Translations under genes and position numbers: made by a program
In this document: piece after piece, positions 5,482 to 46,962 of the stretch
Numbering within the stretch: the first letter of the stretch is position 1
Layout: the number at the start of each line of letters is the position of its first letter
Notes under the pieces: generated by a model
What the model saw: only the letters and a program-made list of their open reading frames with translations
What the model was told of the DNA's origin: nothing
Database searches by the model: none
DNA from: an uncultured Halobacteriales archaeon
Lineage (GTDB): Archaea; Halobacteriota; Halobacteria; Halobacteriales; Haloarculaceae
Reading direction: 5' to 3'
Length of the DNA stretch: 51,349 bases
Assembly (NCBI GenBank): GCA_964569925.1
Contig: CAZMWG010000001.1
Location: forward strand, 1-51,349

Positions 5482-5560
5482 GGTGCTCGTGGCGGACCGA
5501 GTCCGCCGTCCCCCCATCCACGCGGTGGTGGATTGCGCTCCGTTGGTTGAAACGCTACTC

Positions 5561-5598
5561 GAATAAATCTTTGGAACCATTATCAGAAATATAGTTCG
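5561..5598 (-). promoter_or_regulatory. AT-rich island, candidate TATA/BRE promoter of the GH5 gene 3478..5481
   Basis: The minus strand reads cgaactatatttctgataatggttccaaagatttattc, in an otherwise ~70% GC context, 80-115 nt upstream of ATG 5481. Confidence 0.4.
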
Positions 5599-5745
5599 TG
5601 TCCGACCGCCGCGTCGCTCCGCGGGCCGACCGGTCGGCGTTCCCGACGGGGACCCGTCGTCCCGCCGTCCCCGTCGCCGGACCGTCGACGGTCCCCCGCC
5701 CGACGTCCCGGGTCGCCCCGACGCGGACGTCGGGGGGAACGGCGC

Positions 5746-7467: not shown

Positions 7468-7549
7468 GGTCTCCCGTCCGGGCGTGACACGCCTTCCCCC
7501 GTGGACGTGTGATAGGCTCCCGGACGTCTATCGTTACGCTATCGAACGC

Positions 7550-7566
7550 GAGAAATAAAACGTTAC
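7550..7566 (-). promoter_or_regulatory. AT-rich box, candidate promoter of the GH5 gene 5746..7467
   Basis: The minus strand reads gtaacgttttatttctc, about 85-100 nt upstream of ATG 7467. Confidence 0.35.
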
Positions 7567-7639
7567 CGACCGACGACGGCTCCCGGCCGCCGTCGCCGAC
7601 GCCCACCCGGATCGGTGACGCGGGCCGGGGTCCCTGCGG

Positions 7640-10048: not shown

Positions 10049-10110
10049 GTTCCCCCCCGCGTCCCGTCCGGCCGACGCGACGCCCGCACTCCGTGATGTT
10101 TGGGTCCAGA

Positions 10111-10134
10111 GAACGTAAATATTTCCCGGAAAAC
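10111..10134 (-). promoter_or_regulatory. AT-rich box, candidate promoter of the GH5-CBM6 gene
   Basis: The minus strand reads gttttccgggaaatatttacgttc, about 65-85 nt upstream of ATG 10048. Confidence 0.35.
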
Positions 10135-10171
10135 GGCGATACGAAGTCGGCGAGCGCCGAGTGCGGCGCGG

Positions 10172-14098: not shown

Positions 14099-14121
14099 AC
14101 GGTCGTTCCACGGACCGTGTT

Positions 14122-14141
14122 CTGAAATAATTTTCCGTAAG
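14122..14141 (-). promoter_or_regulatory. AT-rich box, candidate TATA element of the GH9 gene (near-leaderless spacing)
   Basis: The minus strand reads cttacggaaaattatttcag, centred about 32 nt upstream of ATG 14098. Confidence 0.45.
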
Positions 14142-14149
14142 AGACGGCG

Positions 14150-14167
14150 AAAAAAACCCGCCGGCGG
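14150..14167 (-). terminator. GC palindrome followed by a T7 run immediately after the mannanase-type gene stop
   Basis: The minus strand after TGA reads ccgccggcggg ttttttt. Oligo-T tracts are the usual archaeal termination signal. Confidence 0.5.
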
Positions 14168-15853: not shown

Positions 15854-15886
15854 TCTCTGTCCCCCGACGATAGTTGCCATCTGAGA

Positions 15887-15903
15887 GTAGATAAAATAAA
15901 CTG
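15887..15903 (-). promoter_or_regulatory. AT-rich box, candidate TATA element of the mannanase-type gene
   Basis: The minus strand reads cagtttattttatctac, about 35-50 nt upstream of ATG 15853. Confidence 0.45.
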
Positions 15904-15961
15904 TCGGGGTGCGGATAGATGAGCCGGGATCACGTCCGACCCTCGCCCGTCGGTCGACCGA

Positions 15962-17707: not shown

Positions 17708-17765
17708 CGTCGTGTTCCGTGTTGCGCTCCGCGCGTGCCGTCCGCTCTCTCGCCCCCGCGGGCGG

Positions 17766-19601
17766 TCAGTCCACGTCCTCGAACAGGTCGATCAGGTCGC
17801 CGTAGTCGACCCGACCGTTGTCGTTGTAGTCGTAGGCGGCCGCGTGGTCGGTCATCGTCGGCTCCTCCATGTGCCGGAAGTAGGTGACCACGTCGTCGTA
17901 GTCCACCTCGCCCGACCCGTTGAGGTCCTCGTAGTGGCCGTCGCCGTCGACGTCTCCCGGGACGGTCCCGTCGATCCGGGCGACCGTCGACGCCACCGAC
18001 AGGGTCGCGTCGGTCGTCGCCACCGCCATCTCGTCTCCCTCGTCGTCGTCGAGGCCCCGGACGGCGACGCTCACGTCGGTCTCGCCGGCCGACCGGCCCG
18101 CGAGGGTCACGGTCGCCAGCGGCACGTCCTGCGCGCCCGCCTGGACCGCCCGGGTGAGATCCGCCGTCTCGATGCTGGCCGACGCTCCCCCGACCTCGCC
18201 GTCCCCGTCGACGGCGTCGAGCCCCCCCGCGGGGTCGATCGACGCCACGGCCGCGACCGACGGGTCGGACACCCGGACGTCGAGCGCCGTCCCGGACACC
18301 CCCGCCGGCGCCTCGGACAGCACGACGGTCGCCGTCGTCTCGCCGCTCCGGTCGACCCCGTCGCTCGCCAGTTCGACCGCCACCGTCGACTCGTCGGCCT
18401 CGTCGCCGTCGGTGGCCGCGCCCGTCCGGGCGGCCGGGGACTCGTTGCCGGCACCGTCCACGGCCCGCACCGACACCCGGTAGCTCCGGCCGGCGGCCAG
18501 CCCGTCGACCGTCGCCCGGGTCCGGCCCGCCGGGACGGTCGTCTCCTCGCCGCCGGCCCGGACGACGTACCGCTCGACGCCGGTGCCGTCGTCCGTCGCG
18601 GCGTTCCACACCGCCTCGATCGACGACTCGGTGGCCGCGGGAACGCGCACGTTCGAGGGCGGCGTCGGTGCCGTCGCGTCCGGCGCCGCGCCGGCGCCCG
18701 ACTCCCCGCCGTCCGAGCCCCCGTCGACCTCGCTCTCGTAGGTCGTCCCGTTGACGGTGAGATCACACTGCCGGTAGGTGACCTCTCCCTGCGCGCCGGG
18801 CCAGTACTCGTTGCCCAACTCGATCCCGGTGAGCAGGAGGTCCTCGCGCACGCCGTGGCGTTCGGTCATGAACTCGATCACCTCCGCGAGGTCGACCGTT
18901 CCGGCGCTCATCCCGCCGCTCACGCGGAAGACGTGGAAGTCGGCGTCCGTCCCGCCGGTGATCGACTCCGCCCAGTAGTCGACCGTGTTGCCGAACCGGT
19001 CCGTCCAGACGTCCCGTTCGGCCGAACCGTGGCTGTGTCCGCCGCCCCAGTCCAGCAACAGCATGATCTCGTGGGTGATCGGCGGGCTCGACCCCGGTTC
19101 GCCGTCCAGCAGCCACCACTCCTCGGCCCAGTCCCACTCGCCGCCCGACACCGACAGGTCGGCGTCGACTTCCAGGACGAGTTCGTCGACGTCGCCCCGC
19201 CGGATCGGGAACTCGTCGGCCCCGCTGTGTCTCCCCCACGGCCGCGCACCGCAGAACACTTCGGGGTAGTTGATCTTGGGAGGCTCGTCGGGCCCCGACC
19301 GCGCGATCCCGGTGGCGTCGAACTCGTAGCCGAAACCGCCGTCGGCTCGCTCCCAGATACACTGCCGGGCCGGCTCCAGACTCCACTGGTTGTCCATCAG
19401 CGTCCACGTCTCGCCGACGTCGATGGTGCCACCCCCTGTGTCGCACTTCTCCGTGACCCGCTCGGCGGCCCCGAGACCGCTCGCGCCGAGTCCGAGCCCC
19501 GCGGCCCCTACGGCCGCGCCGGCGCGCAGGAACCGCCGTCGGGACGTTCCCCCCGACGCCGTGTCACCTGTCCGTTCCGTCCGTTCGTCGTCCTCTCTCA
19601 T
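17766..19601 (-). CDS. secreted GH12 endoglucanase-type hydrolase - FN3 - cohesin-like module - dockerin-like module
   Basis: Tat motif SRRRFLRAGAAVG. GH12-like pattern MDNQWS...HEIMLLLDW...GIELGNEYW. One FN3-like segment. Cohesin-like segment at about 17990-18390 (VAVELASDGVDRSGETTATVVLSEAPAGVSGTALDVRVSDPSVAAV...LATVTLAGRSAGETDVSVAVRGLDDDEGD). C-terminus DVDGDGHYEDLNGSGEVDYDDVVTYF...YDYNDNGRVDYGDLIDLF. Starts at ATG 19601. Confidence 0.8.
   Translation of the reverse strand: MREDDERTERTGDTASGGTSRRRFLRAGAAVGAAGLGLGASGLGAAERVTEKCDTGGGTIDVGETWTLMDNQWSLEPARQCIWERADGGFGYEFDATGIARSGPDEPPKINYPEVFCGARPWGRHSGADEFPIRRGDVDELVLEVDADLSVSGGEWDWAEEWWLLDGEPGSSPPITHEIMLLLDWGGGHSHGSAERDVWTDRFGNTVDYWAESITGGTDADFHVFRVSGGMSAGTVDLAEVIEFMTERHGVREDLLLTGIELGNEYWPGAQGEVTYRQCDLTVNGTTYESEVDGGSDGGESGAGAAPDATAPTPPSNVRVPAATESSIEAVWNAATDDGTGVERYVVRAGGEETTVPAGRTRATVDGLAAGRSYRVSVRAVDGAGNESPAARTGAATDGDEADESTVAVELASDGVDRSGETTATVVLSEAPAGVSGTALDVRVSDPSVAAVASIDPAGGLDAVDGDGEVGGASASIETADLTRAVQAGAQDVPLATVTLAGRSAGETDVSVAVRGLDDDEGDEMAVATTDATLSVASTVARIDGTVPGDVDGDGHYEDLNGSGEVDYDDVVTYFRHMEEPTMTDHAAAYDYNDNGRVDYGDLIDLFEDVD
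17769..17954 (-). repeat. dockerin-like module coding segment (copy 7 of 9)
   Basis: DVDGDGHYEDLNGSGEVDYDDVVTYFRHMEEPTMTDHAAAYDYNDNGRVDYGDLIDLFEDVD. Confidence 0.85.
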
Positions 19602-19651
19602 ACCTGAATCCCCCGTGTGCCGGTACGCGGTACTTGATTTCGCTTCCTCGC

Positions 19652-19688
19652 ACAAATATTATTCGATAAAAAACACGAAAGAATATGC
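19652..19688 (-). promoter_or_regulatory. AT-rich island: T-run terminator of the GH5 gene 19714..22203 plus candidate promoter of the GH12 gene
   Basis: The minus strand reads catattctttcgtgttttttatcgaataatatttgtg. It lies between the stop at 19714 and ATG 19601. Confidence 0.45.
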
Positions 19689-19713
19689 GCCGGACCGCGG
19701 CCGTCGTCGGCGG

Positions 19714-22203
19714 TTACTCGCTCGCTTCCTGGACTTCCTCGTACAGCGAGACGAGGTCGCTGAAGTCGATCCGGTCGTTGTCGTTGTAGTCGTAGGCGTC
19801 GACGTGGTCGGTCATCGCCGGCTCCTCCATGTAGTCGAAGTAGGTGACCACGTCGTCGTAGTCCAGGCTGCCGTTGCCGTTGAGGTCCTCGTAGTCGCCG
19901 TCGCCGTCCGGGTCCTCGGGGACCGCGCCGTCGATCTCGGTGAGGTCCGTCCCCTCCGGCGTGCCGACCGTCAGCATCGCCTCGGTCACCTGGACGTCGA
20001 TCGCCCCGGCGTTCCGGTCGTTCTCCATCCGCTGGACCGCCACGGCGACGCCGGTCTCGCCGGCTGACTGCCCGCGCAGCGTGACGCTACCGAGTTCGAC
20101 GTCGGTCGCGCCGGCCTGGACAGCCCCCCCCGAGTCGGCCGCCTCCAGCACGGCCGAGGAGCCGTCCGACGCAAGTTCGACCGGCCGAGTGAGCGAGTCG
20201 AGGTCGCCGTACATCCCGTTCTCGATGGTGGCGACGTCGGTGTCCTCGACGCTGACCTTGATCTTGTAGCCGCTCAGCCCGTTCGGCAGTTCGGACACCA
20301 TGATCGCCGCCCGGACCATCCCGCCGGGGGTCACCGTCTCGGTCTGTTGCTCGATCGACAGCGTCGGACCGCCGTCGCCGCCGGTCTCGCCGCCGTCGCC
20401 GCCCCCGCCGTCGTCGCCGCCCCCGCCGTCGTACGCGTCGGTGCTGGCCGACGCCATGACGGGGTCGGAGACGTTGCCGGCCTCGTCGACGGCCTGCAGC
20501 GTCATCTCGTAGTCGGTGTCCGGGTCGAGCCCCGACACCGTCGCCTCCGTTCCGGAGACGGTCTTCATCATCCCCTGGAACCCGATCTGGTAGCTGTCGA
20601 CGCCGCCGCCGACGTCGTCGGGGTCGGTGCTCGGCGACCACGACAGCGAGACGCTCGTCGCCGTCGTCCCGGTGACCGAGACGTTCGACGGCGCCGTCGG
20701 CGGCGTCCGGTCCTGCCGCGGGGTCGGGTTCCCGCCACCGCCGCCGGTGTCCTCACACTCGGACTCGGCGACCGGAAGGTCCTGGTCGGCCCGGGCCGCC
20801 AGGAACTCCTTGTACCAGCGGGCGTGGAACTCCTCGTAGGGCTGGAGGGTCTCGAAGTTCTGCCCCTGGAAGAACGCCGGCGACCAGGTGTGATCGAAAC
20901 ACCAGGCCCCCGGGTGGACATCGTAGTTGTTGAAGAACTGCTCGTACTCCGGGGCCTCCGTCTCGGTCGTGCCGTCGATGAACCCGAAGTCGTTGGCGCC
21001 CCCGCCCTCGGCCCAGCCGAACTCGTTGAAGAAGACGGGCGCCTGCTCGGCCGCCGGCCCGTAGTAGTCGCCCATCGGCGAGAGCGTGTCGTGGGTGTAC
21101 CGGTGGCCGTTGTAACACATGTTCGTGATGTCGCTGTAGGTCGACCCCACGTCCATGAGTTCCATCTCGCTGGCCCAGTAGGTGTACTGGCTCCAGCGGG
21201 GCGACCCCAGCGTCTTCACGCTGCCCGGCGCGTTCTCCTCGACGATCTTCACCCACGGCGCGGCCCGTTCGAGCCACAGCCGCCAGTAGGGCTTGGCCCG
21301 CTCGGAGAGGACGTCCGTGTCGTTGCCGGCCTCGTCGCCGCCGCCCGCCGGCGGCTCGTCCGGATGCCCCCAGTCGCCCGCGTACGGGCCCGTCGGCTCG
21401 TTGAAGACGTCGAAGATGATGTGGGGCTCGTCGGCGTACCGGTCCGCGACCGTCTCCCAGAACATCGTCAGCTCCGAGTCCAGTTCCTCGGCGTGGGTCT
21501 CGTACCAGGCGTCGTCGGGCGACCCCTCGAGGCCCTGGATCTCCGAGACCTGGTCCGCGCCGTGCCACAGCACGCCGCGCTCGCCACACATCCCCTGGTC
21601 GTACTGGAAGGTCTCGTTCTGACAGCGAGGCCACTGGCTCACCTCGTCGGCGTACTGGGGCTGGTGGAAGATGGGGAAGTGTCGGTGGTAGTCCAGCATC
21701 AGGTAGACGCCCCGCTCCTTGGACATCTCCACCAGCGGGTCGACGAACCGCTCCAGATACCGGGTCAGCTCCGACTCGTCGAACGACCCCGGCAGGATCG
21801 GTCCCCAGTTGTCCTGGTGTTTCATGTTCGTCGTCCGACCCGCCACCTCGGCGCTGATGTCCTGGGGCTGCATCGGCAGCCGCAGGTACGTGTTCGCCCA
21901 CTCCTCGCTCGTGGCCATCTCCAGCATCTCCTCGGCGGTCGCCCCGCGCCAGTTGCGCTGGGCCCGCGACGGGTCGATCAGGTTTACCCCCCGGAGGATA
22001 ACCTGGTTCCCGCAGGGGTCGACGAGCTCGTTCCCCTCGCGCTCGAGCTGGGGCGTCGGGATCCCGTCGGCGGCCGACGAGGCCGCGTTCCCGACGACCG
22101 ACGAGCCCAGCGCCAGCCCGGCGGTCGCCGCGCTGACCCCCTTCAGCACCGTCCGCCGTGTGGTCGTGTTCTGTGCCGTCCCGTGACTGTGTTCGTCCGT
22201 CAT
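19714..22203 (-). CDS. secreted GH5 endoglucanase-type hydrolase - FN3 - cohesin-like module - dockerin-like module
   Basis: Tat motif TRRTVLKGVSAATAG. GH5 motifs IIFDVFNEP and VFFNEFGW. One FN3-like segment. Cohesin-like segment at about 19965-20370 (LSIEQQTETVTPGGMVRAAIMVSELPNGLSGYKIKVSVEDTDVATI...LGSVTLRGQSAGETGVAVAVQRMENDRN). C-terminus DPDGDGDYEDLNGNGSLDYDDVVTYF...YDYNDNDRIDFSDLVSLY. Starts at ATG 22203. Confidence 0.9.
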   Translation of the reverse strand: MTDEHSHGTAQNTTTRRTVLKGVSAATAGLALGSSVVGNAASSAADGIPTPQLEREGNELVDPCGNQVILRGVNLIDPSRAQRNWRGATAEEMLEMATSEEWANTYLRLPMQPQDISAEVAGRTTNMKHQDNWGPILPGSFDESELTRYLERFVDPLVEMSKERGVYLMLDYHRHFPIFHQPQYADEVSQWPRCQNETFQYDQGMCGERGVLWHGADQVSEIQGLEGSPDDAWYETHAEELDSELTMFWETVADRYADEPHIIFDVFNEPTGPYAGDWGHPDEPPAGGGDEAGNDTDVLSERAKPYWRLWLERAAPWVKIVEENAPGSVKTLGSPRWSQYTYWASEMELMDVGSTYSDITNMCYNGHRYTHDTLSPMGDYYGPAAEQAPVFFNEFGWAEGGGANDFGFIDGTTETEAPEYEQFFNNYDVHPGAWCFDHTWSPAFFQGQNFETLQPYEEFHARWYKEFLAARADQDLPVAESECEDTGGGGGNPTPRQDRTPPTAPSNVSVTGTTATSVSLSWSPSTDPDDVGGGVDSYQIGFQGMMKTVSGTEATVSGLDPDTDYEMTLQAVDEAGNVSDPVMASASTDAYDGGGGDDGGGGDGGETGGDGGPTLSIEQQTETVTPGGMVRAAIMVSELPNGLSGYKIKVSVEDTDVATIENGMYGDLDSLTRPVELASDGSSAVLEAADSGGAVQAGATDVELGSVTLRGQSAGETGVAVAVQRMENDRNAGAIDVQVTEAMLTVGTPEGTDLTEIDGAVPEDPDGDGDYEDLNGNGSLDYDDVVTYFDYMEEPAMTDHVDAYDYNDNDRIDFSDLVSLYEEVQEASE
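19717..19914 (-). repeat. dockerin-like module coding segment (copy 8 of 9)
   Basis: DPDGDGDYEDLNGNGSLDYDDVVTYFDYMEEPAMTDHVDAYDYNDNDRIDFSDLVSLYEEVQEASE. Confidence 0.85.
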
Positions 22204-22331
22204 CGTGTGTTCGTGTGGACTGTCCGACCGGTCGGACCCCCCTCCCGGTCCGCGCGTCCTCGCGCTCGTTCGTCGCACTGTACCCCCCACCGGACCCGAG
22301 CCACGACGGCCCGGGTCCGACGCCTCCGGAC

Positions 22332-25300
22332 CTACCCCGACATCTCCTCGAACAGCGAGACCACGTCGGCCAGATCCAGGCCGCCGTTGCCGTTGAAGTC
22401 GTAGGCCTCCGGGTGGGACGTGATCGCCTCGTCGTCGCGCTCGTAGTAGTACTGGATCACGTCCGTGAACTCCACCTCCCCGTTGGCGTTGAGGTCCTCG
22501 TACAGCCCGTCGTCGTCGATGTCCTGGGGCGTGATCCCGTTGATCGGCGAGACGCCGCCGGTGTCCGTCTCCTCGGTCACCGACAGGACCGCGGTCACGT
22601 CGCCGACCGACATCGGGTTGCCGTCGTCGTCGTCGAACTTGCCCGTCGACAACACGAGCTCCGTGCTGCCGGTCGACTCGGCGTCGAGCGTGACCGTCGC
22701 CAGCGTCACGTCGGCGGCGCCGGGCTGGACCTCCTGGCCGAGGTCGGTCCCGTTCATCGACACCGAGCCGCCGTCGTCGGCCACGCTCGCGCCGCCGATC
22801 ATCCCCCCGCTGCCGAAGGCGCTGGTGACGCCCGCGTCCGTGATCGTCGCCACCGCCGGGTCGGCGACCTCGAGGGTGGCGTTGAACCCGGAGATGCCCG
22901 TCGGCGCCGACGGCAACAGGATCGTCGCCTCGACGGTCCCGCCGGGCGCGGCCTCGGCGGGCGACAGCGCTAGGTCGACGCCCTCGCCGTCGACGCCGCC
23001 GCCGACCGTCCCGTCGTCGTCGCCGGGCTCGCCGTCGTCGGAGCCGTCGTCGGCGTCGTCCTCGTCACCGCCGGAGTCGCCCCCGACGACGAGGGTCGTC
23101 GTCGTCTCCCCCGGCGACGTCAGCCCGCCGTCGTCGTCGGTGAGCCGGTCGACCGACAGCGAGAGGTCGACGTCGCCCTCGCTCTCGCCGGCCAGCGTGA
23201 CCGTCGCCAGCGTGACGTCCGTGGCGCCGGGCTGGACCGCTCCGCCGAAGTCGATGCCCGTCGCCGTCATCGAACCCTCGCCCACGTCGGCGCCGCCGGC
23301 CGGCCCCTGGAACCTCTCGAGCAGCCCGCCGTCCGCGATCGTCGCGATCGACGTGTCCGAGACCTCGAACGCGAGGTCGAAGCCGGCCACCCCCTCCGGG
23401 GCGGCGCCCAGCACCAGTTCCGCGTCGACGGTCCCGCCGGCGGGGACGTCGTCGGCCTCGAGGTCGACCGAGAGGTCGCCGTCGCCGGCGTCGTCCTCGT
23501 CGTCGGAGCCGTCGCCCGTGCCGTCGCCGGCGTCGCCCTCGCCGCCCTCCGTCTCGACGGAGAGCGGGGCGCTCGCGCTCGTCGACATCCGGCTCCCGTC
23601 GCCCATGTCGACGTTCGCCTCGACGGAGACGTCCGCCTCGCCGGCGGCCTCGCCGACGAGGGTCACCGTCCCCAGGTCGACGTCCACGGCGTCCGGCTGG
23701 ACGGCGTTGTTGACGTCGCCGCCACGCAGCGTCGCCGTGGCGCCGTCGCCGCTCACGGTCGCCGAAGTCGGCTGGAACGACCCCGGGATCGTCGCCGAGT
23801 CGACGGTGACGACGTCCGTGTCGCTCACGGTCAGGTCGAGGTAGAAGCCGGTCATGTTCCCGGCCATCGACGGGAGTGTGATCGTCGCCGCGACCTCCTC
23901 GCCCGGCGCGACCGTGTCCGAGGCCAAGTCCAGCGAGACGCCCGAACCGTCCCCGGTCCCGTCGTCGCCGCCGCCGGCGTCGTCCTCACCCTCGTCGCCG
24001 GCGCCGCCGTCACCGACGACGAGCGTCGACGAGCCGCTCGCCGACGCCTGGCTCCCGTCGGCCAGGTCCATACTGCCCGCCGCGGACACCGACGCTTCGC
24101 CCTCGCCCTCGACGGTCATGGTGACCGTCGCCAGCGTGACGTCCGTGGCGCCGGCGGGGACGTCGTCGTTGACGTCGCCGCCGCGGAAGGAGGCGAAGGC
24201 ACCGCCGTCGGCGACGGAACTCTCGGCGAACCGGAACCAGTCGGCGGTCTCGATCCCGGTGATCGTCGCCACCGACGTGTCGTCGATCGAGACCTCGACG
24301 TCGAAGCCGGTCGGGTTCCCGGCGATCGACGGGAGGACGACCGTCGCCTCCACCTCGTCGCCGGGTTCGGCACCCGACGGGAGGTCGACGACGAGTCCGT
24401 CGCTCGCGGTGCCGTCCTCCCCGTCGTCGGAGCCGTCGTCGCCGGAACCGTCGTCGACGCCGCCGTCACCGACGACGATCGTCGACGAGCCGCTCGCCGA
24501 GACCCGACCGCCGTCGGCCAGGTCCATGCCACCGGTCGCCGTCAGGGAAGCTTCCCCCTCGCCCTCGACGGCCAGCGTGACCGTCGCGAGCGGCACGTCG
24601 GTGGCGCCGGCGGGGACGTCGTCGTTGACGTCGCCGCCGCGGAAGGAGGCGGAACCCCCGTTGTCGGCGACGGAACTCTCGGCGAACCGGAACCAGTCGG
24701 CGGTCTCGATCCCGGTGATCGTCGCCACCGACGTGTCGTCGATCGAGACCTCGACGTCGAAGCCGGTCGGGTCCCCGGCGATCGACGGGAGGGTGATCGT
24801 CGCCTCCACCTCGTCGCCGGGCTCGGCTCCGGACGGCAGCCCGACCGCCAGCCCGTCGCTCGCGGTGCCGTCCTCCCCGTCGCCGGCGCCGCCGTCACCG
24901 ACGACGATCGTCGACGAGCCGCTCGCCGACGCCTGGCTCCCGTCGGCCAGGTCCATACTGCCCGCCGCGGACACCGACGCTTCGCCCTCGCCCTCGACGG
25001 TCATGGTGACCGTCGCCAGCGTGACGTCCGTGGCGCCGGCGGGGACGTCGTCGTTGACGTCGCCGCCGCGGAAGGAGGCGAAGGCACCGCCGTCGGCGAC
25101 GGAACTCTCGGCGAACCGGAACCAGTCGGCGGTCTCGATCCCGGTGATCGTCGCCACCGACGTGTCGTCGATCGAGACCTCGACGTCGAAGCCGGTCGGG
25201 TTCCCGGCGATCGACGGGAGGACGACCGTCGCCTCCACCTCGTCGCCGGGTTCTGCACTCGACGGGAGGTCGACGACGAGCCCGTCGCTCGCGGTGCCGT

Positions 25301-26687
25301 CCTCCCCGTCGTCGGAGCCGTCGTCGCCGGAGCCGCCGTCGTCGGTCGCGACGGCCAGCGTGGCGCTCGCGCTCATCGAACTCCTGGCACCGTCCGCCGT
25401 GTCGACGTCGCCGGCGGCCGACACCGCGGTCTCGCCCTCGCCCTCGCCGGCCAGGGTGACCGTCGCCACCGTGACGTCCGTGGCGCCGGCGTCGACGGCG
25501 TTGTCGACGTCGCCGCCCCGGATCGACACCGAGGAGCCGTCGGCGCTCACGCTGCTGGCGCTGGGCTTGAGCAGTTCCGACGGCGTCGCGTCCGCGATCG
25601 TTGCCACCGACGGGTCCTCGACGGTCACCGTGGCGTCCATGCCGGTCATGTCGCCCGACACCTCCGGCACGACCAGCCGCGCCTGGACCTCCTCTCCGGG
25701 CGCGACCGTGTCGGCTGGCACCTCGAAGCTCGCCGACAGCCCCTCGTCGGAGCCGGCGGCGATGGTCGCCGTCGCCGTCGCGGCGGCCGACTGGTTGCCG
25801 GCGCCGTCGACGGCCGTCACGGCGACGTCGTACGTCGTCCCCGCAGACAGGCCGTCGACCGTCGCCTCGGTGGTGTCGCCGCCGACGTTCATCGCGGTGT
25901 CCCCGACCTCGACGATGTAGTGGTCGACGCCGGTCCCCTCGTCGGTCGACGCGGACCAGGAGAGCGTGACGCTCGACTCGGTCGTGCCGGTCGCCGCGAG
26001 GTTGCCCGGCGTCGACGGGCCACTGGTGTCCTCGCCGGGATCCGGCGTCGGCTCGGGCGCCCCGGAGCCGCCGCCGGCCGACCCGGCGGCAAACCGCATC
26101 TCGTCGATCTCGACGGCACCCGAGCCGTTCGCTCCCTCCCAGAAGTTGAACCGCACCGACGGCAGCGACGACCAGTCGGCGTCGACCGCCGACAGCGGCA
26201 CCGAGACCGTCGAGAAGGAGGTGCCGATCGACCCGTCCGCGACGTCCCCGAACGTCTCGACGACGCCGCCGAGCTTGATCGCGAAGTGGCTCCCCTCGCC
26301 GCCCTCGTCGCCCCGGATCACGAACTCCAGGCGCTCGTAGTCGGAGACGTCACGCCCGACGTTGCTGCCGAACCAGCCGGCGTTGTCGTACTCCAGGCGC
26401 AACGCGCCGTCGACGACCTCGCCGTTGCCGCCGCCGTTGGCGAAGCCGCCCGCGTCCGCCCAGTTACCGATGTCGTTCCCCTCCGGCCACGCCGGGTCGC
26501 CGTCGTAGTCGTTGACGAGCAGCCCCTGCGCGGACTCCTGTGCCGCCACCGTTCCGGCGCCCGCGGCGAGCAGTCCCGTTCCGGCGGCCGCGGCCTGCAT
26601 GAACGTCCGCCTCGAGGCGTCGTACCCGCCGTCGACCCCTGACGTGGTCCGATCTGTCGGTTCTGTGTTCCCTGTGTCGTTGGTCAT
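22332..26687 (-). CDS. scaffoldin-like protein: Tat signal - CBM-like beta-sandwich domain - FN3 - seven cohesin-like modules joined by acidic linkers - divergent C-terminal dockerin-like module
   Basis: Tat motif SRRTFMQAAAAGTG, starting at ATG 26687. Seven ~130-aa modules share the pattern [LV]..[DE]L......PG..V.A.[IV].LP.....G[FM]......V.D..VATI ... GATDV.LATVT[LM]...EGE. They sit at about 25345-25745, 24905-25290, 24475-24860, 24020-24405, 23555-23940, 23085-23475 and 22580-22980. C-terminus DIDDDGLYEDLNANGEVEFTDVIQYY...YDFNGNGGLDLADVVSLF. Confidence 0.85.
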   Translation of the reverse strand: MTNDTGNTEPTDRTTSGVDGGYDASRRTFMQAAAAGTGLLAAGAGTVAAQESAQGLLVNDYDGDPAWPEGNDIGNWADAGGFANGGGNGEVVDGALRLEYDNAGWFGSNVGRDVSDYERLEFVIRGDEGGEGSHFAIKLGGVVETFGDVADGSIGTSFSTVSVPLSAVDADWSSLPSVRFNFWEGANGSGAVEIDEMRFAAGSAGGGSGAPEPTPDPGEDTSGPSTPGNLAATGTTESSVTLSWSASTDEGTGVDHYIVEVGDTAMNVGGDTTEATVDGLSAGTTYDVAVTAVDGAGNQSAAATATATIAAGSDEGLSASFEVPADTVAPGEEVQARLVVPEVSGDMTGMDATVTVEDPSVATIADATPSELLKPSASSVSADGSSVSIRGGDVDNAVDAGATDVTVATVTLAGEGEGETAVSAAGDVDTADGARSSMSASATLAVATDDGGSGDDGSDDGEDGTASDGLVVDLPSSAEPGDEVEATVVLPSIAGNPTGFDVEVSIDDTSVATITGIETADWFRFAESSVADGGAFASFRGGDVNDDVPAGATDVTLATVTMTVEGEGEASVSAAGSMDLADGSQASASGSSTIVVGDGGAGDGEDGTASDGLAVGLPSGAEPGDEVEATITLPSIAGDPTGFDVEVSIDDTSVATITGIETADWFRFAESSVADNGGSASFRGGDVNDDVPAGATDVPLATVTLAVEGEGEASLTATGGMDLADGGRVSASGSSTIVVGDGGVDDGSGDDGSDDGEDGTASDGLVVDLPSGAEPGDEVEATVVLPSIAGNPTGFDVEVSIDDTSVATITGIETADWFRFAESSVADGGAFASFRGGDVNDDVPAGATDVTLATVTMTVEGEGEASVSAAGSMDLADGSQASASGSSTLVVGDGGAGDEGEDDAGGGDDGTGDGSGVSLDLASDTVAPGEEVAATITLPSMAGNMTGFYLDLTVSDTDVVTVDSATIPGSFQPTSATVSGDGATATLRGGDVNNAVQPDAVDVDLGTVTLVGEAAGEADVSVEANVDMGDGSRMSTSASAPLSVETEGGEGDAGDGTGDGSDDEDDAGDGDLSVDLEADDVPAGGTVDAELVLGAAPEGVAGFDLAFEVSDTSIATIADGGLLERFQGPAGGADVGEGSMTATGIDFGGAVQPGATDVTLATVTLAGESEGDVDLSLSVDRLTDDDGGLTSPGETTTTLVVGGDSGGDEDDADDGSDDGEPGDDDGTVGGGVDGEGVDLALSPAEAAPGGTVEATILLPSAPTGISGFNATLEVADPAVATITDAGVTSAFGSGGMIGGASVADDGGSVSMNGTDLGQEVQPGAADVTLATVTLDAESTGSTELVLSTGKFDDDDGNPMSVGDVTAVLSVTEETDTGGVSPINGITPQDIDDDGLYEDLNANGEVEFTDVIQYYYERDDEAITSHPEAYDFNGNGGLDLADVVSLFEEMSG
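22335..22523 (-). repeat. dockerin-like module coding segment (copy 9 of 9, scaffoldin-borne, most divergent)
   Basis: DIDDDGLYEDLNANGEVEFTDVIQYYYERDDEAITSHPEAYDFNGNGGLDLADVVSLFEEMSG. Confidence 0.8.
22580..25745 (-). other. array of seven cohesin-like modules within the scaffoldin gene
   Basis: Seven ~130-aa units separated by D/G/S/E-rich linkers. Approximate boundaries are given under the scaffoldin CDS. Confidence 0.8.
24001..25340 (-). repeat. three tandem ~430-450 bp repeats encoding scaffoldin cohesin modules 2-4
   Basis: 24001-24455 matches 24886-25340 at an offset of 885 bp. Within that, 24024-24368 and 24909-25253 are identical over 345 bp. The middle copy (about 24475-24880) is diverged by roughly 10%. 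Confidence 0.95.
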
Positions 26688-26746
26688 TCTTCCCCCCCAG
26701 CGTGCGTCTCCGCACTGAGGTACCCACATCGTTCGTGGTGTCCATA

Positions 26747-26783
26747 CCATAAAAAAATAGCGGTAGATAGTGAAATATAATCG
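26747..26783 (-). promoter_or_regulatory. AT-rich island: T7 run downstream of the anchor gene plus candidate promoter of the scaffoldin gene
   Basis: The minus strand reads gattatatttcactatctaccgctatttttttatgg, 60-95 nt upstream of ATG 26687. Confidence 0.45.
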
Positions 26784-26816
26784 GTTCGGCGGTCGACGGT
26801 CGGCCGGCGTCCCGGG

Positions 26817-27470
26817 CTACAGGATCTCGCGCAGGCCGACGCCCGCGAGCACGACGACCCCGAGCAACACCGTCGCGATCGCCATCGTCGCGACCAGCCC
26901 CGGCGTGCCGGAGCCACCCGGGGACCCGGAGCCGTTCGCCGACTCCGTCCCGTCCGCCGATCCACCCGCCGACCCGCCCGCCGTGGGGTTCCCGACCACG
27001 AGGGACCCGTTCCGGACCGACCGGGCCGCCGACTCGCCGACGTCGTTGTCCAGTTCGACCGTCGACGCCTCCAGCGAGACGACCGACTCGGTGTCTCCCC
27101 GGACGGTGACGGTCCCCAGGGTCACCGCCCCGGTCCCGTTTCCGACCGTGTCGTTGAGGTCGATCCCCCTGAGGTAGATCCGTCGGTCGTCGACGACCCG
27201 TACGTTCGTCAGCAGCATCTCGTCGTTGACCGATCCGCCGACGATCGTCGCGTTCGGCCCGACGGCGACGCTCAGGTTGTACCCCGCCAGCCCGTTCGGC
27301 GCCTCCGTGAGGGTCACCGTCACCGTCGTCTCCCCGCCCACCGGCACCTCGCCGTCGCCGACTTCGAGCGTCGGCCCGTCCTGTGCGACCGCCGCCGTCC
27401 CCGCCCCCGCCGCGGCGACCGCCAGCACGGCCGCCACCGCCCCGATCGTCGCCCCGCGAACGCTGTGCAT
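26817..27470 (-). CDS. cell-surface anchored single-cohesin protein: signal peptide - cohesin-like module - G/S-rich stalk - PGF-CTERM-like transmembrane anchor
   Basis: The N-terminal signal MHSVRGATIGAVAAVLAVAAAGAGTAAVAQ has no twin arginine. The cohesin-like body reads LEVGDGEVPVGGETTVTVTLTEAPNGLAGYNLSVAVGPNATIV...GAVTLGTVTVRGDTESVVSLEASTVELDNDVGE. The C-terminus GSGSPGGSGTPGLVATMAIATVLLGVVVLAGVGLREIL resembles the archaeosortase PGF-CTERM signal, with PGL in place of PGF. Confidence 0.8.
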   Translation of the reverse strand: MHSVRGATIGAVAAVLAVAAAGAGTAAVAQDGPTLEVGDGEVPVGGETTVTVTLTEAPNGLAGYNLSVAVGPNATIVGGSVNDEMLLTNVRVVDDRRIYLRGIDLNDTVGNGTGAVTLGTVTVRGDTESVVSLEASTVELDNDVGESAARSVRNGSLVVGNPTAGGSAGGSADGTESANGSGSPGGSGTPGLVATMAIATVLLGVVVLAGVGLREIL

Positions 27471-27490
27471 GGTTCGATCGTCCCTTCTCT

Positions 27491-27534
27491 AACGAACTGT
27501 AATAAACCTTTTTGCAACGTTCGAAAGGCAAAGA
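27491..27534. promoter_or_regulatory. AT-rich divergent intergenic region: candidate promoters for the anchor-cohesin gene (-) and gene 27535..28632 (+)
   Basis: aacgaactgtaataaacctttttgcaacgttcgaaaggcaaaga. The whole intergenic space is only 64 bp. Confidence 0.4.
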
Positions 27535-28632: not shown

Positions 28633-28793
28633 CCCGACGGCCCGTCGCCGTCGGACCGCGCTTCGACCGTCGACGGACGCCGCCGTCGGTTCCGTGGCCG
28701 GAGGCCACGCCATCTGCCCCGTGGCCGGGAGCCACGCCGCCGTCCCCCGCCGGAGGGGACGACCCTTTGTCCGTGCACCTCGTCGTCGGGGTG

Positions 28794-42641: not shown

Positions 42642-42877
42642 GGGACGGCGGCCCGACGAGGGCGGCGATACGCTCGTCGTACCCGGACAGGTCGGCGCGG
42701 AAAGCCCGCGTTGTCCGGGTTCACGCGACGAGGTAACTCGGCTCCGTGTACCGTTCGCATACGTTTCGTACTTCTGACTGTTATCGACGGTAAGTCGGAA
42801 AATCGGGGGTACTGGGGTCTTACTCCGGTGGACGGTCGTATCGGTTTTTGGCAGTTACGTGTCAACCGACGGTCGCA

Positions 42878-46924: not shown

Positions 46925-46962
46925 CAACGTATGTGGCCCGACCGCGTACCACAGGGGACTGC

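What the first reader, a model, noticed from the sequence alone, without database searches (positions are those of the whole stretch)
26817..27470. Single-cohesin protein with a PGF-CTERM-like tail directly upstream of the scaffoldin: candidate cell-surface anchor
This 217-aa protein consists of a signal peptide, one cohesin-like module, a G/S-rich stalk and a C-terminus reading TPGLVATMAIATVLLGVVVLAGVGLREIL. That tail resembles the archaeosortase (ArtA) PGF-CTERM sorting signal used for lipid anchoring of haloarchaeal surface glycoproteins, with PGL in place of PGF. The scaffoldin itself ends in a divergent dockerin. This reproduces the bacterial arrangement in which a type-II dockerin on the scaffoldin plugs into an anchoring cohesin, except that the S-layer-homology domain is replaced by an archaeal anchor. 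It is the only secreted protein in the cluster without a twin-arginine motif.
Basis: partly seen in the sequence, partly recalled or inferred. Interest (0 to 1): 0.8.

Follow-up and report, generated by a model that had tools for sequence, protein, structure and literature searches.

The report
Cell-surface cohesin anchor, haloarchaeal cellulosome
This small gene encodes a membrane-tethered "socket" (cohesin) protein that most likely holds a cellulose-degrading multi-enzyme complex on the surface of a salt-loving archaeon; no such cell-bound complex turned up for archaea in the literature I could search.

Summary
The 217-aa ORF at 26817-27470 (-) is real and built as described: a Sec-type signal peptide, one module, a 29-residue G/S-rich stalk, then PGL, a hydrophobic helix and REIL. 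Pfam and NCBIfam do not label it. A profile of the modules hits solved cellulosomal cohesins, and an MSA-based AlphaFold model (pLDDT >90 over residues 31-160) matches 40 of 40 top PDB hits as cohesins, type-I-like.

It belongs to a large, uncharacterised haloarchaeal family of small single-cohesin proteins with C-terminal anchors. Of 102 representatives, 38 carry PGF or xGF tails, and several of the ~20 tails scored pass or approach the curated PGF-CTERM cutoff. PGL recurs in four independent lineages at the PGF position.

In 47 of 47 evaluable metagenomic loci the anchor gene directly follows a secreted protein ending in a dockerin (43 confirmed PhoX phosphatases; 4 cut fragments). Here its neighbour is a seven-cohesin scaffoldin with the most divergent of the nine dockerins.

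The cell-surface anchor reading is well supported. Still untested are ArtA cleavage and lipidation of the PGL tail, which fails the curated model, and which dockerin binds. I found no published archaeal cellulosome with an anchor. I rate it a new variant of a known kind, interest about 0.7.

The parts
26817..27470 (-). Anchor gene, 217 aa plus the TAG stop at 26817-26819
   Evidence: ORF and translation. GC3 is 0.94. Identical or 99%-identical proteins occur on independent assemblies.
27384..27470 (-). Sec-type signal peptide, residues 1-29. Predicted cleavage is AVA|Q. There is no twin-arginine.
   Evidence: Read directly from the sequence. An A-x-A-Q end of the hydrophobic region is conserved across the family, and 22 of 32 members lack RR.
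26991..27380 (-). Cohesin module, residues 31-160, type-I-like beta-sandwich
   Evidence: The module profile hits R. flavefaciens cohesins at E 7e-4 to 1.4e-3, and the top two hits run full length. AlphaFold pLDDT is 90-98. The top 40 Foldseek PDB hits are all cohesins, with TM normalised to target about 0.75-0.79, including A. fulgidus 2XDH.
26904..26990 (-). G/S-rich stalk, residues 161-189, containing the NGS sequon at N179
   Evidence: 16/29 residues are Gly or Ser. pLDDT is low. The protein has 6 N-X-S/T sequons in all, 2.8 per 100 aa against 0-0.7 in the other nine cluster proteins.
26895..26903 (-). PGL tripeptide, residues 190-192, at the position of PGF in relatives
   Evidence: Family alignment and tail census: 28 PGF, 10 xGF, 6 PGL and 2 PGI among 102 representatives.
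26832..26894 (-). C-terminal hydrophobic helix, residues 193-213
   Evidence: Kyte-Doolittle 2.53 over 19 residues. AlphaFold predicts a helix at 198-216.
26820..26831 (-). C-terminal REIL, residues 214-217: one Arg followed by Glu, the weakest basic end in the first 32-member alignment
   Evidence: Single-Arg-plus-acid endings also occur on literal PGF tails (P0142, P0209).
27500..27506 (-). TATA-like TTTATTA element, with 29 nt between it and the anchor ATG
   Evidence: Read from the sequence. This is inference only; the tool's sigma-70 scan does not apply to archaea.
26751..26780 (-). Intergenic TTATATTT element (26773-26780) and T7 run (26751-26757) between the anchor stop and the scaffoldin ATG. 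This is a possible terminator and separate scaffoldin promoter.
   Evidence: Read from the sequence; inference only.
22332..26750 (-). Adjacent scaffoldin: Tat signal, N-terminal domain of unknown family, fn3, seven cohesin modules, C-terminal dockerin
   Evidence: HMMER counted 8 matched stretches.
22335..22523 (-). Scaffoldin dockerin, the proposed ligand of the anchor cohesin. Positions 10-11 read F-T and L-A.
   Evidence: It is the most divergent of the nine dockerins. The same VEFTDVI...AYDFN.NG.LDL.DVVSLF.EM signature is found in the H. urmianum scaffoldin P0044.
3478..22290 (-). Eight downstream genes for Tat-secreted, dockerin-bearing proteins: five GH5, one GH9, one GH10 and one unknown. 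Three of them also carry a cohesin.
   Evidence: Pfam scans, N- and C-termini, enzyme-borne cohesins.

Best explanation
The gene encodes a cell-surface anchoring cohesin, the membrane-proximal socket of a cellulosome-like complex in a haloarchaeon.

**Proposed mechanism**
1. The protein is exported by the Sec pathway and its signal peptide is removed after AVA.
2. The mature protein is about 188 aa: a type-I-like cohesin on a short, probably N-glycosylated G/S stalk.
3. It is held at the cytoplasmic membrane by its C-terminal hydrophobic tail.
4. The cohesin binds a Ca-dependent dockerin. The most likely ligand is the divergent C-terminal dockerin of the adjacent seven-cohesin scaffoldin.
5. 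That scaffoldin in turn collects the GH5, GH9 and GH10 enzymes through their own dockerins, so the whole assembly is cell-bound.

**The tail.** It descends from the archaeosortase (ArtA) PGF-CTERM signal, with PGL in place of PGF. I cannot tell whether ArtA still cleaves it and attaches a lipid, or whether it now stays as a plain transmembrane helix. I put ArtA processing at about 0.4.

**Shown here:** gene, domain order, cohesin fold, family membership, conserved adjacency to dockerin proteins, homology of the tail position to PGF.

**Inferred:** export route, glycosylation, binding, identity of the partner, lipidation.

**Sub-probabilities:** surface-tethered protein 0.9; binds some dockerin 0.75; partner is the scaffoldin dockerin 0.5.
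For: **Cohesin identity**
- The module profile hits only cellulosomal cohesins at the top of the PDB sequence search: 5m2o, 5aoz and 5lxv at E 7e-4 to 1.4e-3.
- The MSA-based AlphaFold model has pLDDT 90-98 over residues 31-160.
- The 40 best Foldseek PDB hits are all cohesins. They include the archaeal 2XDH (TM to target 0.79) and the surface-anchor cohesins OlpA, OlpC and ScaE.
- Pfam Cohesin hits 3 of 32 family members.

**Anchor role**
- A family of about 100 representative small proteins shares the design of signal peptide, one cohesin, low-complexity stalk and C-terminal hydrophobic helix.
- The anchor gene follows a same-strand gene ending in a dockerin, at a gap of 5-203 bp, in 47/47 evaluable metagenomic loci. 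43 of these are PhoX and 4 are truncated.
- The same pairing is seen in Halorubrum, in Halomicrobium salinisoli, and in L006 and L008.

**A dedicated anchor lineage**
- The nearest neighbour of the window cohesin is a foreign anchor cohesin in 100/100 bootstrap replicates, and never one of the ten local scaffoldin or enzyme cohesins.
- Mean identity is 34.5% to other anchors against 28.8% to the local cohesins.

**Scaffoldin as partner**
- The two genes are adjacent.
- The scaffoldin dockerin is the outlier of the nine (40-52% identity) and has unique F-T / L-A residues at positions 10-11.
- The same signature appears in the H. urmianum scaffoldin P0044, and that genome also keeps an anchor, P0023.
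- Its second segment averages 63% identity to anchor-adjacent dockerins against 52% to the core enzyme dockerins.

**Surface-protein hallmarks**
- It is the only non-Tat protein of the cluster.
- It has 6 N-glycosylation sequons, 2.8 per 100 aa against 0-0.7 in the others.

**Tail ancestry**
- Among relatives the census counts PGF 28, xGF 10, PGL 6 (four independent of the window) and PGI 2.
- Of the ~20 tails scored against TIGR04126, P0205 reaches 39.5 bits, P0117 34.2, P0038 32.0, P0031 25.8 and P0033 25.6, against a cutoff of 24.5.
Against:
- Pfam Cohesin and NCBIfam give no direct hit on this protein.
- The tail scores nothing on TIGR04126 even at E<=10. An engineered PGF/RRR version reaches only 6.2 bits.
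- No PGL tail in the family scores on TIGR04126.
- 36 of 102 family tails have no motif at all, so a plain transmembrane anchor clearly works for this family.
- The basic cluster expected after the helix is reduced to one Arg followed by Glu.
- Positions 10-11 of anchor-adjacent dockerins (YA, YD or FN in segment 1; FD or YD in segment 2) look more like the enzyme and GH9 dockerins (YD/YT, YD/LD) than like the scaffoldin's (FT/LA).
- Here the anchor gene lies upstream of its presumed partner. In all other loci it lies downstream.
- The stalk is only 29 residues, at the short end of the family, so the cohesin may sit below the S-layer.
- artA is not in the window, and the rest of the genome could not be read.
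Confidence: 0.6

Rival explanations
1. The anchor cohesin takes enzyme-type dockerins directly, as OlpA and OlpC do in Clostridium thermocellum. Single enzymes or Coh-Doc enzymes (GH9, g858, g629) would then be displayed on the cell, while the scaffoldin complex is free or attached in another way.
For: - In every other context the family's neighbour is an enzyme (PhoX, or a nuclease-domain protein) and not a scaffoldin.
- Positions 10-11 of those dockerins (YD/FD, YD/YD) resemble the window's enzyme and GH9 dockerins more than the scaffoldin's FT/LA.
- OlpA and OlpC cohesins are among the close structural matches.
Against: - The gene is adjacent to the scaffoldin, not to an enzyme.
- The scaffoldin's distinct dockerin, conserved in H. 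urmianum, needs a partner other than its own cohesins.
- Segment-2 identity favours the scaffoldin.
- This rival is not exclusive of the main explanation.
Confidence: 0.25
2. The tail is a working ArtA signal. [quoted passage not shown] This is the first reader's specific proposal and is a rival only for the anchoring step.
For: - The tripartite layout is present: low-complexity stalk, PG+hydrophobic residue, helix, then Arg.
- PGL aligns with PGF of relatives that pass TIGR04126.
- PGL recurs in four independent representatives, three of them as PGLG.
- Literal PGF tails with single-Arg-plus-acid ends exist; P0209 scores 24.2 bits.
- ArtA handles both Sec and Tat substrates (PMC6098224).
Against: - The tail gets no score on the curated model.
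- The only mutagenesis known to me (PGF to PFG) shows the motif matters but did not test Leu (PMC6098224).
- A third of the family has no motif, so decay to a plain transmembrane anchor is common.
- The presence of artA in this genome is unverified.
Confidence: 0.4
3. It is a general-purpose anchor whose real partner lies elsewhere in the genome, for example a PhoX-cohesin-dockerin protein. Its position next to the scaffoldin would then be incidental.
For: - The family's canonical partner is PhoX.
- The anchor and the scaffoldin seem to have separate promoter-like elements.
Against: - In all 47 evaluable loci the partner is the immediate neighbour.
- Here the neighbour is a dockerin-bearing scaffoldin at the head of a ten-gene same-strand cluster.
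- H. urmianum keeps the anchor at the syntenic site although PhoX is absent there, and its genome encodes a scaffoldin.
Confidence: 0.1
4. It is not a dockerin receptor at all. It would be a cohesin-fold, Ig-like surface glycoprotein with another role, such as an adhesin, an S-layer accessory protein or a carbohydrate binder.
For: - Pfam gives only a weak Big_12 hit.
- Cohesin-like folds occur outside cellulosomes (2jh2, 9ifr).
- The sequon density is very high.
Against: - The protein is homologous to the scaffoldin's own repeats.
- Family-wide linkage to dockerin-ending genes is very strong.
- The closest folds are dockerin-binding cohesins.
Confidence: 0.08

Closest known systems
Ruminococcus flavefaciens ScaE (single cohesin plus a C-terminal LPXTG sortase signal; PDB 2zf9)
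   Same: Both are small proteins with a signal peptide, one cohesin, a linker and a C-terminal tripartite sorting signal (motif, hydrophobic helix, charged end). ScaE tethers the whole cellulosome to the cell by binding a scaffoldin-borne dockerin. 2zf9 is among the fold matches.
   Different: ScaE is bacterial, has a type-III cohesin, and is linked by sortase to peptidoglycan. Here the host is an archaeon, the fold is type-I-like, there is no LPXTG, and the tail descends from PGF-CTERM and inserts in or is lipid-linked to the membrane.
Clostridium thermocellum anchoring scaffoldins SdbA, OlpB and Orf2p (type-II cohesins plus SLH), and OlpA and OlpC (type-I cohesin plus SLH)
   Same: They play the same role in a hierarchy of anchor, then scaffoldin dockerin of a separate specificity, then enzymes. 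OlpA (3ul4) and OlpC (4dh2) cohesins are close structural matches.
   Different: There is no SLH module here. Type-II cohesins match less well (5k39 at rank 50). The host is aerobic and halophilic, and the enzymes are Tat-exported.
Archaeoglobus fulgidus cohesin-dockerin pair (PDB 2XDH)
   Same: It is an archaeal cohesin shown to bind its dockerin, with the highest target-normalised TM-score among the top hits (TM to target 0.79, rmsd 2.6). Cohesin and dockerin sit on the same protein, as in g858, GH9 and g629 here.
   Different: It is non-cellulosomal, with no scaffoldin, no glycoside hydrolase cluster and no described membrane anchor.
ANME archaeal dockerin/cohesin proteins (Chadwick et al. 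2022, PMC9012536; Timmers et al. 2017, PMC5244752)
   Same: These are archaeal scaffoldin-like proteins with a dockerin plus up to 5 cohesins, proposed to attach proteins to the cell envelope.
   Different: Their partners are substrate-binding proteins and S-layer domain proteins, not cellulases. No small dedicated anchor family and no link to PGF-type tails on cohesin proteins was described.
Haloferax volcanii S-layer glycoprotein and other ArtA / PGF-CTERM substrates (TIGR04126)
   Same: Both are Sec-exported, glycosylated surface proteins with a C-terminal layout of motif, hydrophobic helix and basic end. Relatives of this protein pass the curated model.
   Different: This tail has PGL instead of PGF, has one Arg followed by Glu, and scores nothing on the model. 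Processing is untested.
Dockerin-bearing glycoside hydrolases of polysaccharide-degrading haloarchaea (Sorokin et al. 2024, PMC10963439; 2026, PMC13260240)
   Same: These are the same kind of GH5/GH10 clusters with Tat signals and type-I dockerin domains in Halobacteria.
   Different: Those papers read the dockerin as a substrate-binding module and mention neither cohesins, nor a scaffoldin, nor an anchor.

Membership tests
Cohesin (Pfam PF00963; type-I cohesin fold) | Match to the Pfam Cohesin HMM above the gathering score | tested here: not met
   There is no hit at E<=1 on this protein or on the scaffoldin. 3 of 32 family members hit at E<=0.01, best 2.6e-7.
Cohesin (Pfam PF00963; type-I cohesin fold) | Beta-sandwich fold superposable on solved cohesins | tested here: met
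   The AlphaFold model has pLDDT 90-98 over residues 31-160. The top 40 Foldseek PDB hits are all cohesins, with E down to 2.3e-9 and TM to target about 0.75-0.79.
Cohesin (Pfam PF00963; type-I cohesin fold) | Sequence-profile relationship to solved cohesins | tested here: met
   The profile of 13 modules places 5m2o, 5aoz, 5lxv and 5m2s as its top four PDB hits. The first three have E 7e-4 to 1.4e-3, and 5m2o and 5aoz cover 3-133 of 134 positions.
Cohesin (Pfam PF00963; type-I cohesin fold) | Ca-dependent binding of a dockerin | not testable with these tools
PGF-CTERM / archaeosortase A substrate (TIGR04126, PF18204) | Curated HMM score of at least 24.5 bits | tested here: not met
   There is no hit on the full protein at E<=1 or on the isolated tail at E<=10. 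Positive controls in the same family score 25.6-39.5 bits. The model also misses relatives with a literal PGF (P0022, P0034), so it under-calls.
PGF-CTERM / archaeosortase A substrate (TIGR04126, PF18204) | Pro-Gly-Phe signature tripeptide | tested here: not met
   The tripeptide is PGL at residues 190-192. It sits at the alignment position of PGF in relatives, and PGL recurs in 4 independent representatives.
PGF-CTERM / archaeosortase A substrate (TIGR04126, PF18204) | A hydrophobic helix right after the motif, at the extreme C-terminus, preceded by a low-complexity linker | tested here: met
   V193-L213 has Kyte-Doolittle 2.53, the predicted helix spans 198-216, and a G/S stalk lies upstream.
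PGF-CTERM / archaeosortase A substrate (TIGR04126, PF18204) | A cluster of basic residues after the helix | tested here: inconclusive
   There is only R214, followed by E215. Most relatives have 2-4 Arg, but the PGF tails P0142 (ARHE) and P0209 (AGRD, 24.2 bits) end similarly.
PGF-CTERM / archaeosortase A substrate (TIGR04126, PF18204) | artA present in the same genome; C-terminal cleavage and lipid attachment | not testable with these tools
   There is no artA among the window's genes.
Anchoring scaffoldin of bacterial cellulosomes (SdbA / OlpB / ScaE type) | Cohesin(s) joined to a cell-envelope attachment module, with no catalytic domain | tested here: met
   The protein has one cohesin, a stalk and a C-terminal membrane tail and nothing else.
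Anchoring scaffoldin of bacterial cellulosomes (SdbA / OlpB / ScaE type) | SLH repeats or an LPXTG sortase signal as the attachment module | tested here: not met
   There is no SLH or LPXTG hit in Pfam or NCBIfam. It works like an anchoring scaffoldin but is not a member of those bacterial families.
Anchoring scaffoldin of bacterial cellulosomes (SdbA / OlpB / ScaE type) | Cohesin specific for the primary scaffoldin's dockerin and not for the enzyme dockerins | not testable with these tools
   Only indirect evidence is available: a divergent scaffoldin dockerin and an anchor cohesin that lies outside the local cohesin group.
Haloarchaeal small anchored single-cohesin family (defined here; database names include 'cell surface protein', 'cohesin domain-containing protein' and 'PGF-CTERM protein') | 190-300 aa with a signal peptide, one cohesin, a low-complexity stalk and a C-terminal hydrophobic helix | tested here: met
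   The alignment runs full length with 31 relatives at 25-37% identity. HMMER gives E=3.7e-48 for its twin P0002 against the family profile.
Haloarchaeal small anchored single-cohesin family (defined here; database names include 'cell surface protein', 'cohesin domain-containing protein' and 'PGF-CTERM protein') | Gene adjacent, on the same strand, to a secreted protein ending in a dockerin | tested here: met
   The scaffoldin with its C-terminal dockerin starts 66 bp downstream. The family norm is 47/47 evaluable loci. The gene order is reversed here.

The most novel reading that the evidence does not exclude
This is the membrane anchor of a complete archaeal cellulosome (anchor, seven-cohesin scaffoldin, eight dockerin-bearing proteins including seven glycoside hydrolases) in an aerobic extreme halophile. 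Its PGL tail is a working archaeosortase signal, so the complex hangs from a covalent lipid anchor. More broadly, haloarchaea would have a dedicated family of cohesin anchors forming a general plug-and-socket system. That system would display exoenzymes such as PhoX phosphatases, nucleases and cellulases on the cell surface.
Probability: 0.3. Interest if true: 0.88.

Novelty: new variant of a known kind. Interest (0 to 1): 0.72.

Why it matters
**Cellulosome distribution.** A 2025 review describes cellulosomes as a feature of some anaerobic bacteria and fungi (PMC12484212). Earlier surveys, cited in PMC9012536, noted that archaea with cohesins lacked multi-cohesin scaffoldins. Papers on cellulose- and mannan-degrading haloarchaea treat the dockerins on their enzymes as substrate-binding modules (PMC10963439, PMC13260240). 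They also call the degradation mechanism almost unknown (PMC10267330).

**What this adds.** A dedicated surface anchor next to a seven-cohesin scaffoldin and eight dockerin-bearing proteins (seven of them glycoside hydrolases) makes a cell-bound archaeal cellulosome a concrete, testable model. It also re-reads those dockerins as assembly modules.

**Wider biology.** The anchor belongs to a widespread family whose usual partner is a PhoX phosphatase. This points to a general cohesin-dockerin display system on haloarchaeal cells.

**ArtA specificity.** PGF, PGL, GPL and motif-free tails on orthologous proteins form a natural series for working out what archaeosortase A actually requires.

**Applications.** Salt-stable cohesin-dockerin pairs and anchors would be useful parts for designer enzyme complexes in high salt or ionic liquids.

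Tried and rejected
- Direct Pfam and NCBIfam scans of the protein gave nothing useful; the best was a weak Big_12 hit at E 0.014.
- A single-sequence phmmer search against PDB gave only low-complexity matches to Gly/Ser-tagged 'lysis proteins', which are spurious.
- Single-sequence AlphaFold gave pLDDT 45 and was discarded.
- The first large-database search with the protein alone found only its two near-identical copies. A profile of the modules was needed.
- Fine placement of the window anchor with P0026/29/31/33 and H. urmianum P0023 appeared in one NJ tree. I rejected it after bootstrapping gave 28/100, and 2/100 with P0023. P0023 is closer to its congener P0024 (43%) than to the window anchor (38%).
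- Reading the negative PGF-CTERM HMM result as proof of a plain transmembrane anchor was rejected. The model also misses relatives with a literal PGF, and by construction it penalises Leu.
- Overlapping ORFs on both strands (26464-27531 -, 26770-27177 +, 27226-27492 +) were rejected as high-GC artefacts by codon bias.
- The sigma-70 promoter and intrinsic-terminator scan found nothing and does not apply to archaea.
- The locus of the H. urmianum scaffoldin P0044 could not be fetched.
- The PGF-permutation paper PMC4810604 is not held, so I relied on the review PMC6098224.
- Alignment A2 was too divergent for the metagenome pattern search, so I used a tighter one.
- One dockerin regex was wrong and returned zero matches, and one bootstrap run timed out. 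Both were redone.
- The scaffoldin's N-terminal domain has no PDB sequence match.
- The organism could not be named. Even ribosomal protein L15e has no relative at 90% identity or more.
Full report
**1. The observation**

The ORF at 26817-27470 on the minus strand has an ATG start and a TAG stop and encodes 217 aa. The window is 72.5% G+C and full of spurious ORFs. This is the only ORF at the position with coding-type codon bias, GC3 0.94. The same protein occurs on two independent assemblies, at 100% identity and at 99% with two substitutions.

It is the first of ten consecutive minus-strand genes spanning 3478-27470:
- the anchor;
- a 1472-aa scaffoldin;
- eight proteins with glycoside hydrolase or unknown domains: five GH5, one GH9, one GH10 and one unknown.

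All nine other proteins have a twin-arginine signal and a C-terminal module with two Ca-binding F-hand motifs. Pfam Dockerin_1 hits all of them, mostly below the gathering score; g573 passes at 24.7 bits. The anchor alone has a single Arg in its N-region (MHSVR) and an AVA|Q cleavage motif. Residues 161-189 are 16/29 Gly or Ser. Every factual statement in the finding holds.

**2. Is the module a cohesin?**

Pfam Cohesin does not hit this protein or the scaffoldin, so I tested the call in other ways.

- The module shares 25-33% identity with each of the seven scaffoldin modules and with single modules in three enzymes: g858, GH9 g1308 and g629.
- A profile of 13 such modules, searched against all PDB sequences, puts four Ruminococcus flavefaciens cellulosomal cohesins at the top. 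The first three have E 7e-4 to 1.4e-3, and the top two are full-length matches.
- Single-sequence AlphaFold failed with pLDDT 45. With a 42-row alignment the model reaches pLDDT 90-98 over residues 31-160.
- The 40 best Foldseek PDB matches are all cohesins, with TM to target about 0.75-0.79. They include the archaeal A. fulgidus cohesin 2XDH and the surface-anchor cohesins OlpA, OlpC and ScaE. The type-II cohesin 5k39 ranks only 50th.

The module is a cohesin with a type-I-like fold.

**3. The family**

A profile search of 5.8 billion proteins found about 36 small relatives of 217-258 aa with the same layout. Sources name them 'cell surface protein', 'cohesin domain-containing protein' (Halomicrobium urmianum, with a Pfam Cohesin hit) or 'PGF-CTERM protein'. 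An exhaustive HMMER search of 1.84 billion cluster representatives found 2,702 relatives at E<=1e-3 and 404 at E<=1e-30. These include many single-module anchors and proteins with up to eight modules. Most family members lack a twin-arginine, 22 of 32.

**4. Genomic context**

- In Halorubrum amylolyticum and H. saccharovorum, in Halomicrobium salinisoli and in a metagenomic contig, the anchor gene directly follows a PhoX alkaline phosphatase of roughly 890-910 aa (a contig-cut 666-aa fragment in the metagenomic case) whose C-terminus is a cohesin plus a dockerin.
- In another contig the neighbour is a nuclease-domain protein with the same C-terminal cassette.
- I then pulled 80 related metagenomic loci. 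All 47 anchor loci with enough upstream sequence have a same-strand upstream gene ending in a dockerin, at a gap of 5-203 bp. 43 are PhoX homologues and the other four are contig-truncated fragments. This sample is biased towards Halorubrum-type anchors.
- In H. urmianum the anchor stands alone at the site syntenic with the H. salinisoli PhoX-anchor pair.

The family is therefore tightly linked to dockerin-bearing secreted proteins. I take this as strong comparative evidence that its cohesin is a dockerin receptor at the cell surface.

**5. Which dockerin?**

Seven enzyme dockerins of the window share 63-81% identity with one another. GH9 shares 56-61% with them. The scaffoldin's shares 40-52% with all the others. 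The recognition positions 10-11 of the two segments differ as follows:

| Dockerin | Segment 1 | Segment 2 |
|---|---|---|
| Core enzymes | Y-D | Y-T |
| GH9 | Y-D | L-D |
| Scaffoldin | F-T | L-A |

A search with the scaffoldin found P0044, a 1001-aa protein on a 3,355,004-bp NCBI contig. That is the same length as H. urmianum CP084090.1, which carries anchor P0023. P0044 has the same N-terminal domain, about six cohesins and a dockerin with the same VEFTDVI...AYDFN.NG.LDL.DVVSLF.EM signature. A conserved, distinct scaffoldin dockerin implies a conserved, distinct partner.

The anchor cohesin is the obvious candidate. Its nearest neighbour is a foreign anchor cohesin in 100/100 bootstrap replicates, and never one of the ten local cohesins.

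The evidence is not one-sided. Positions 10-11 of anchor-adjacent dockerins elsewhere (YA, YD or FN in segment 1; FD or YD in segment 2) resemble the enzyme and GH9 dockerins at least as much as the scaffoldin's. Only the whole second segment favours the scaffoldin, at 63% against 52% mean identity. I put the scaffoldin dockerin as partner at about 0.5 and direct binding of enzyme dockerins at about 0.25. The two are not exclusive.

**6. The tail**

The curated PGF-CTERM model TIGR04126 gives no hit on the protein or on the isolated tail. An engineered PGF/RRR version scores only 6.2 bits against a cutoff of 24.5. The model does work in this tool and on this family:

| Protein | Tail type | TIGR04126 bits |
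|---|---|---|
| P0205 | PGF | 39.5 |
| P0117 | PGF | 34.2 |
| P0038 | PGF | 32.0 |
| P0031 | xGF | 25.8 |
| P0033 | xGF | 25.6 |
| P0209 | PGF | 24.2 |
| P0023 | PGF | 22.5 |

. It also misses relatives with a literal PGF (P0022, P0034) and every PGL tail, so it weights the Phe heavily.

A census of 102 anchor-type representatives gives:

| Tail class | Count |
|---|---|
| PGF | 28 |
| xGF | 10 |
| PGL | 6 (four independent of the window protein, three as PGLG) |
| PGI | 2 |
| GPL/LPL/GLP-type | 20 |
| No motif | 36 |

The PGL of this protein therefore sits at the homologous position of PGF and is a recurrent variant. The family also shows that a motif-free transmembrane tail is viable. The window tail has the weakest basic end of the first 32-member alignment, one Arg followed by Glu. 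Two literal PGF tails end similarly.

According to the review PMC6098224 and PMC7157517, ArtA substrates have a PGF motif, a hydrophobic domain and basic residues. Permuting PGF to PFG blocks processing, and both Sec and Tat substrates are processed. I found no test of a Leu variant. I estimate ArtA processing of this tail at about 0.4. Either way the protein is membrane-tethered.

**7. Other surface hallmarks**

The anchor has six N-X-S/T sequons, 2.8 per 100 aa, and 55% of its Asn lie in sequons. The other nine cluster proteins have 0-0.7 per 100 aa. The anchor is also much less acidic, at 10% Asp+Glu against 17-19%. A TATA-like TTTATTA lies with 29 nt between it and the ATG. A TTATATTT element and a T7 run lie between the anchor stop and the scaffoldin start, so the two genes may be transcribed separately (inference only).

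A caveat is that the 29-residue stalk is at the short end of the family, so the cohesin may sit under the S-layer.

**8. Comparison with what is known**

- The closest functional analogue is R. flavefaciens ScaE: one cohesin plus a C-terminal sortase signal, tethering the cellulosome through a scaffoldin dockerin.
- Next are the C. thermocellum SLH-type anchors SdbA and OlpB, and OlpA and OlpC.
- The protein works like an anchoring scaffoldin but is not a member of those bacterial families. There is no SLH and no LPXTG, and the fold is type-I-like, not type-II or type-III.
- In archaea, cohesin-dockerin pairs are known from A. fulgidus. Scaffoldin-like proteins with up to five cohesins have been noted in ANME genomes, with non-cellulolytic partners (PMC9012536, PMC5244752).
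- Papers on polysaccharide-degrading haloarchaea note type-I dockerins on GH5, GH26 and lyase enzymes but read them as substrate-binding modules. They mention no cohesin, scaffoldin or anchor (PMC10963439, PMC13260240). PMC10267330 calls the mechanism in haloarchaea almost unknown.
- A 2025 cellulosome review confines cellulosomes to anaerobic bacteria and fungi (its abstract) and mentions archaea only through the A. fulgidus pair used as a tool.
- I found no description of an archaeal cellulosome or of this anchor family in the searchable library. Subscription-only papers could not be checked.

**9. Organism**

The flanks encode ribosomal protein L15e, phytoene synthase, an Mrp antiporter and Bat-type HTH_10 regulators. 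The best relatives of the cluster proteins are in Halorubrum, Halomicrobium, Halorhabdus and Halosimplex. This is a member of the Halobacteria. Even L15e has no relative at 90% identity or more, and the source contig is 72.7 kb. artA is not in the window.

**10. Verdict**

This is a membrane-tethered single-cohesin protein of a dedicated haloarchaeal anchor family, placed at the head of a cellulosome-like gene cluster. Its tail descends from PGF-CTERM.

Still inferred are binding, the identity of the partner, and archaeosortase processing. I rate it a new variant of a known kind: the cellulosome anchoring principle in an archaeon with an archaeal type of anchor. Interest is about 0.7.

Noticed in passing
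L001:7024-10564, L003:7059-10582, L005:7309-10687, L006:3-2666, and L010-L069: There is a conserved gene pair in Halobacteria. A Tat-secreted PhoX alkaline phosphatase ending in a cohesin-dockerin cassette is followed, at a gap of 5-203 bp, by a small membrane-anchored cohesin protein. This held in 47/47 evaluable metagenomic loci, 43 with PhoX homology. It suggests cohesin-dockerin display of a phosphatase on the cell surface.
   Followed up: yes
window 19957-20373 (g858), 10379-10822 (GH9 g1308), 17988-18389 (g629), all minus strand: Three enzymes carry their own cohesin just before their dockerin, as the PhoX proteins do elsewhere. Such Coh-Doc cassettes could let enzymes chain onto each other or extend the scaffold.
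   Followed up: partly
window 26046-26543 (-), about residues 70-235 of the scaffoldin ORF that starts at 26750: This N-terminal domain (LLVNDYDGDPAWPEGNDIGNWADAGGFANGGG...) has no Pfam or PDB sequence match. It recurs at the N-terminus of the H. urmianum scaffoldin P0044 and twice in a Halorhabdus GH5 (P0045). It is a candidate new carbohydrate-binding module playing the role of CBM3 in CipA.
   Followed up: partly
window 24891-25286 and 24006-24401 (-), scaffoldin modules 2 and 4: Modules 2 and 4 differ at only 2 of 132 residues, and module 3 is close to both. This points to a recent internal duplication of a two-module block.
   Followed up: no
L004:10001-10663 compared with L005:7309-10687: Halomicrobium urmianum keeps the anchor (P0023, PGF tail, 22.5 bits on TIGR04126) at the site syntenic with the H. 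salinisoli PhoX-anchor pair, but has no PhoX gene there. The scaffoldin-like P0044 lies on a contig of the same length as that H. urmianum chromosome, so it is presumably from the same genome. This is a cultured organism in which the model could be tested.
   Followed up: partly
protein P0094 (997 aa): This protein has four cohesin matches and its own C-terminal PGF-CTERM-like tail (KKTPGFGLVSCIIGLSAVFLYRKKQK), and its composition is not halophile-like. A scaffoldin anchored directly by an archaeosortase-type signal may exist in other archaea.
   Followed up: no
window 28536-29723 (+): A Na+/Ca2+ exchanger family gene lies about 1 kb from a cluster encoding nine Ca-binding dockerins. This may be coincidence.
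   Followed up: no
window 27535-28632 (+): A 365-aa protein is transcribed divergently from the anchor gene. It has an N-terminal membrane segment, a very acidic middle and a Cys-rich C-terminus (CPGCEGP...CC...C..C). No Pfam or NCBIfam family matched.
   Followed up: no
window 10172-14098 (-) and 42848-43717 (+): The GH9 enzyme carries four DUF4397 repeats between its catalytic domain and its cohesin-dockerin cassette. A separate 289-aa DUF4397 protein is encoded 29 kb away.
   Followed up: no
window 44830-46752 and 46933-50175 (+): Two adjacent Bat-type regulators (PAS/GAF, BAT and HTH_10 domains) lie downstream of the cluster. They are possible regulators, but this is untested.
   Followed up: no
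Natronoglomus mannanivorans gene 2719 (table in PMC10963439): A 258-aa 'S-layer glycoprotein, 2 TMH' is listed in the middle of a published GH5/GH10 cluster with dockerin proteins. Its size and two hydrophobic ends fit this anchor family. I could not retrieve the sequence.
   Followed up: no
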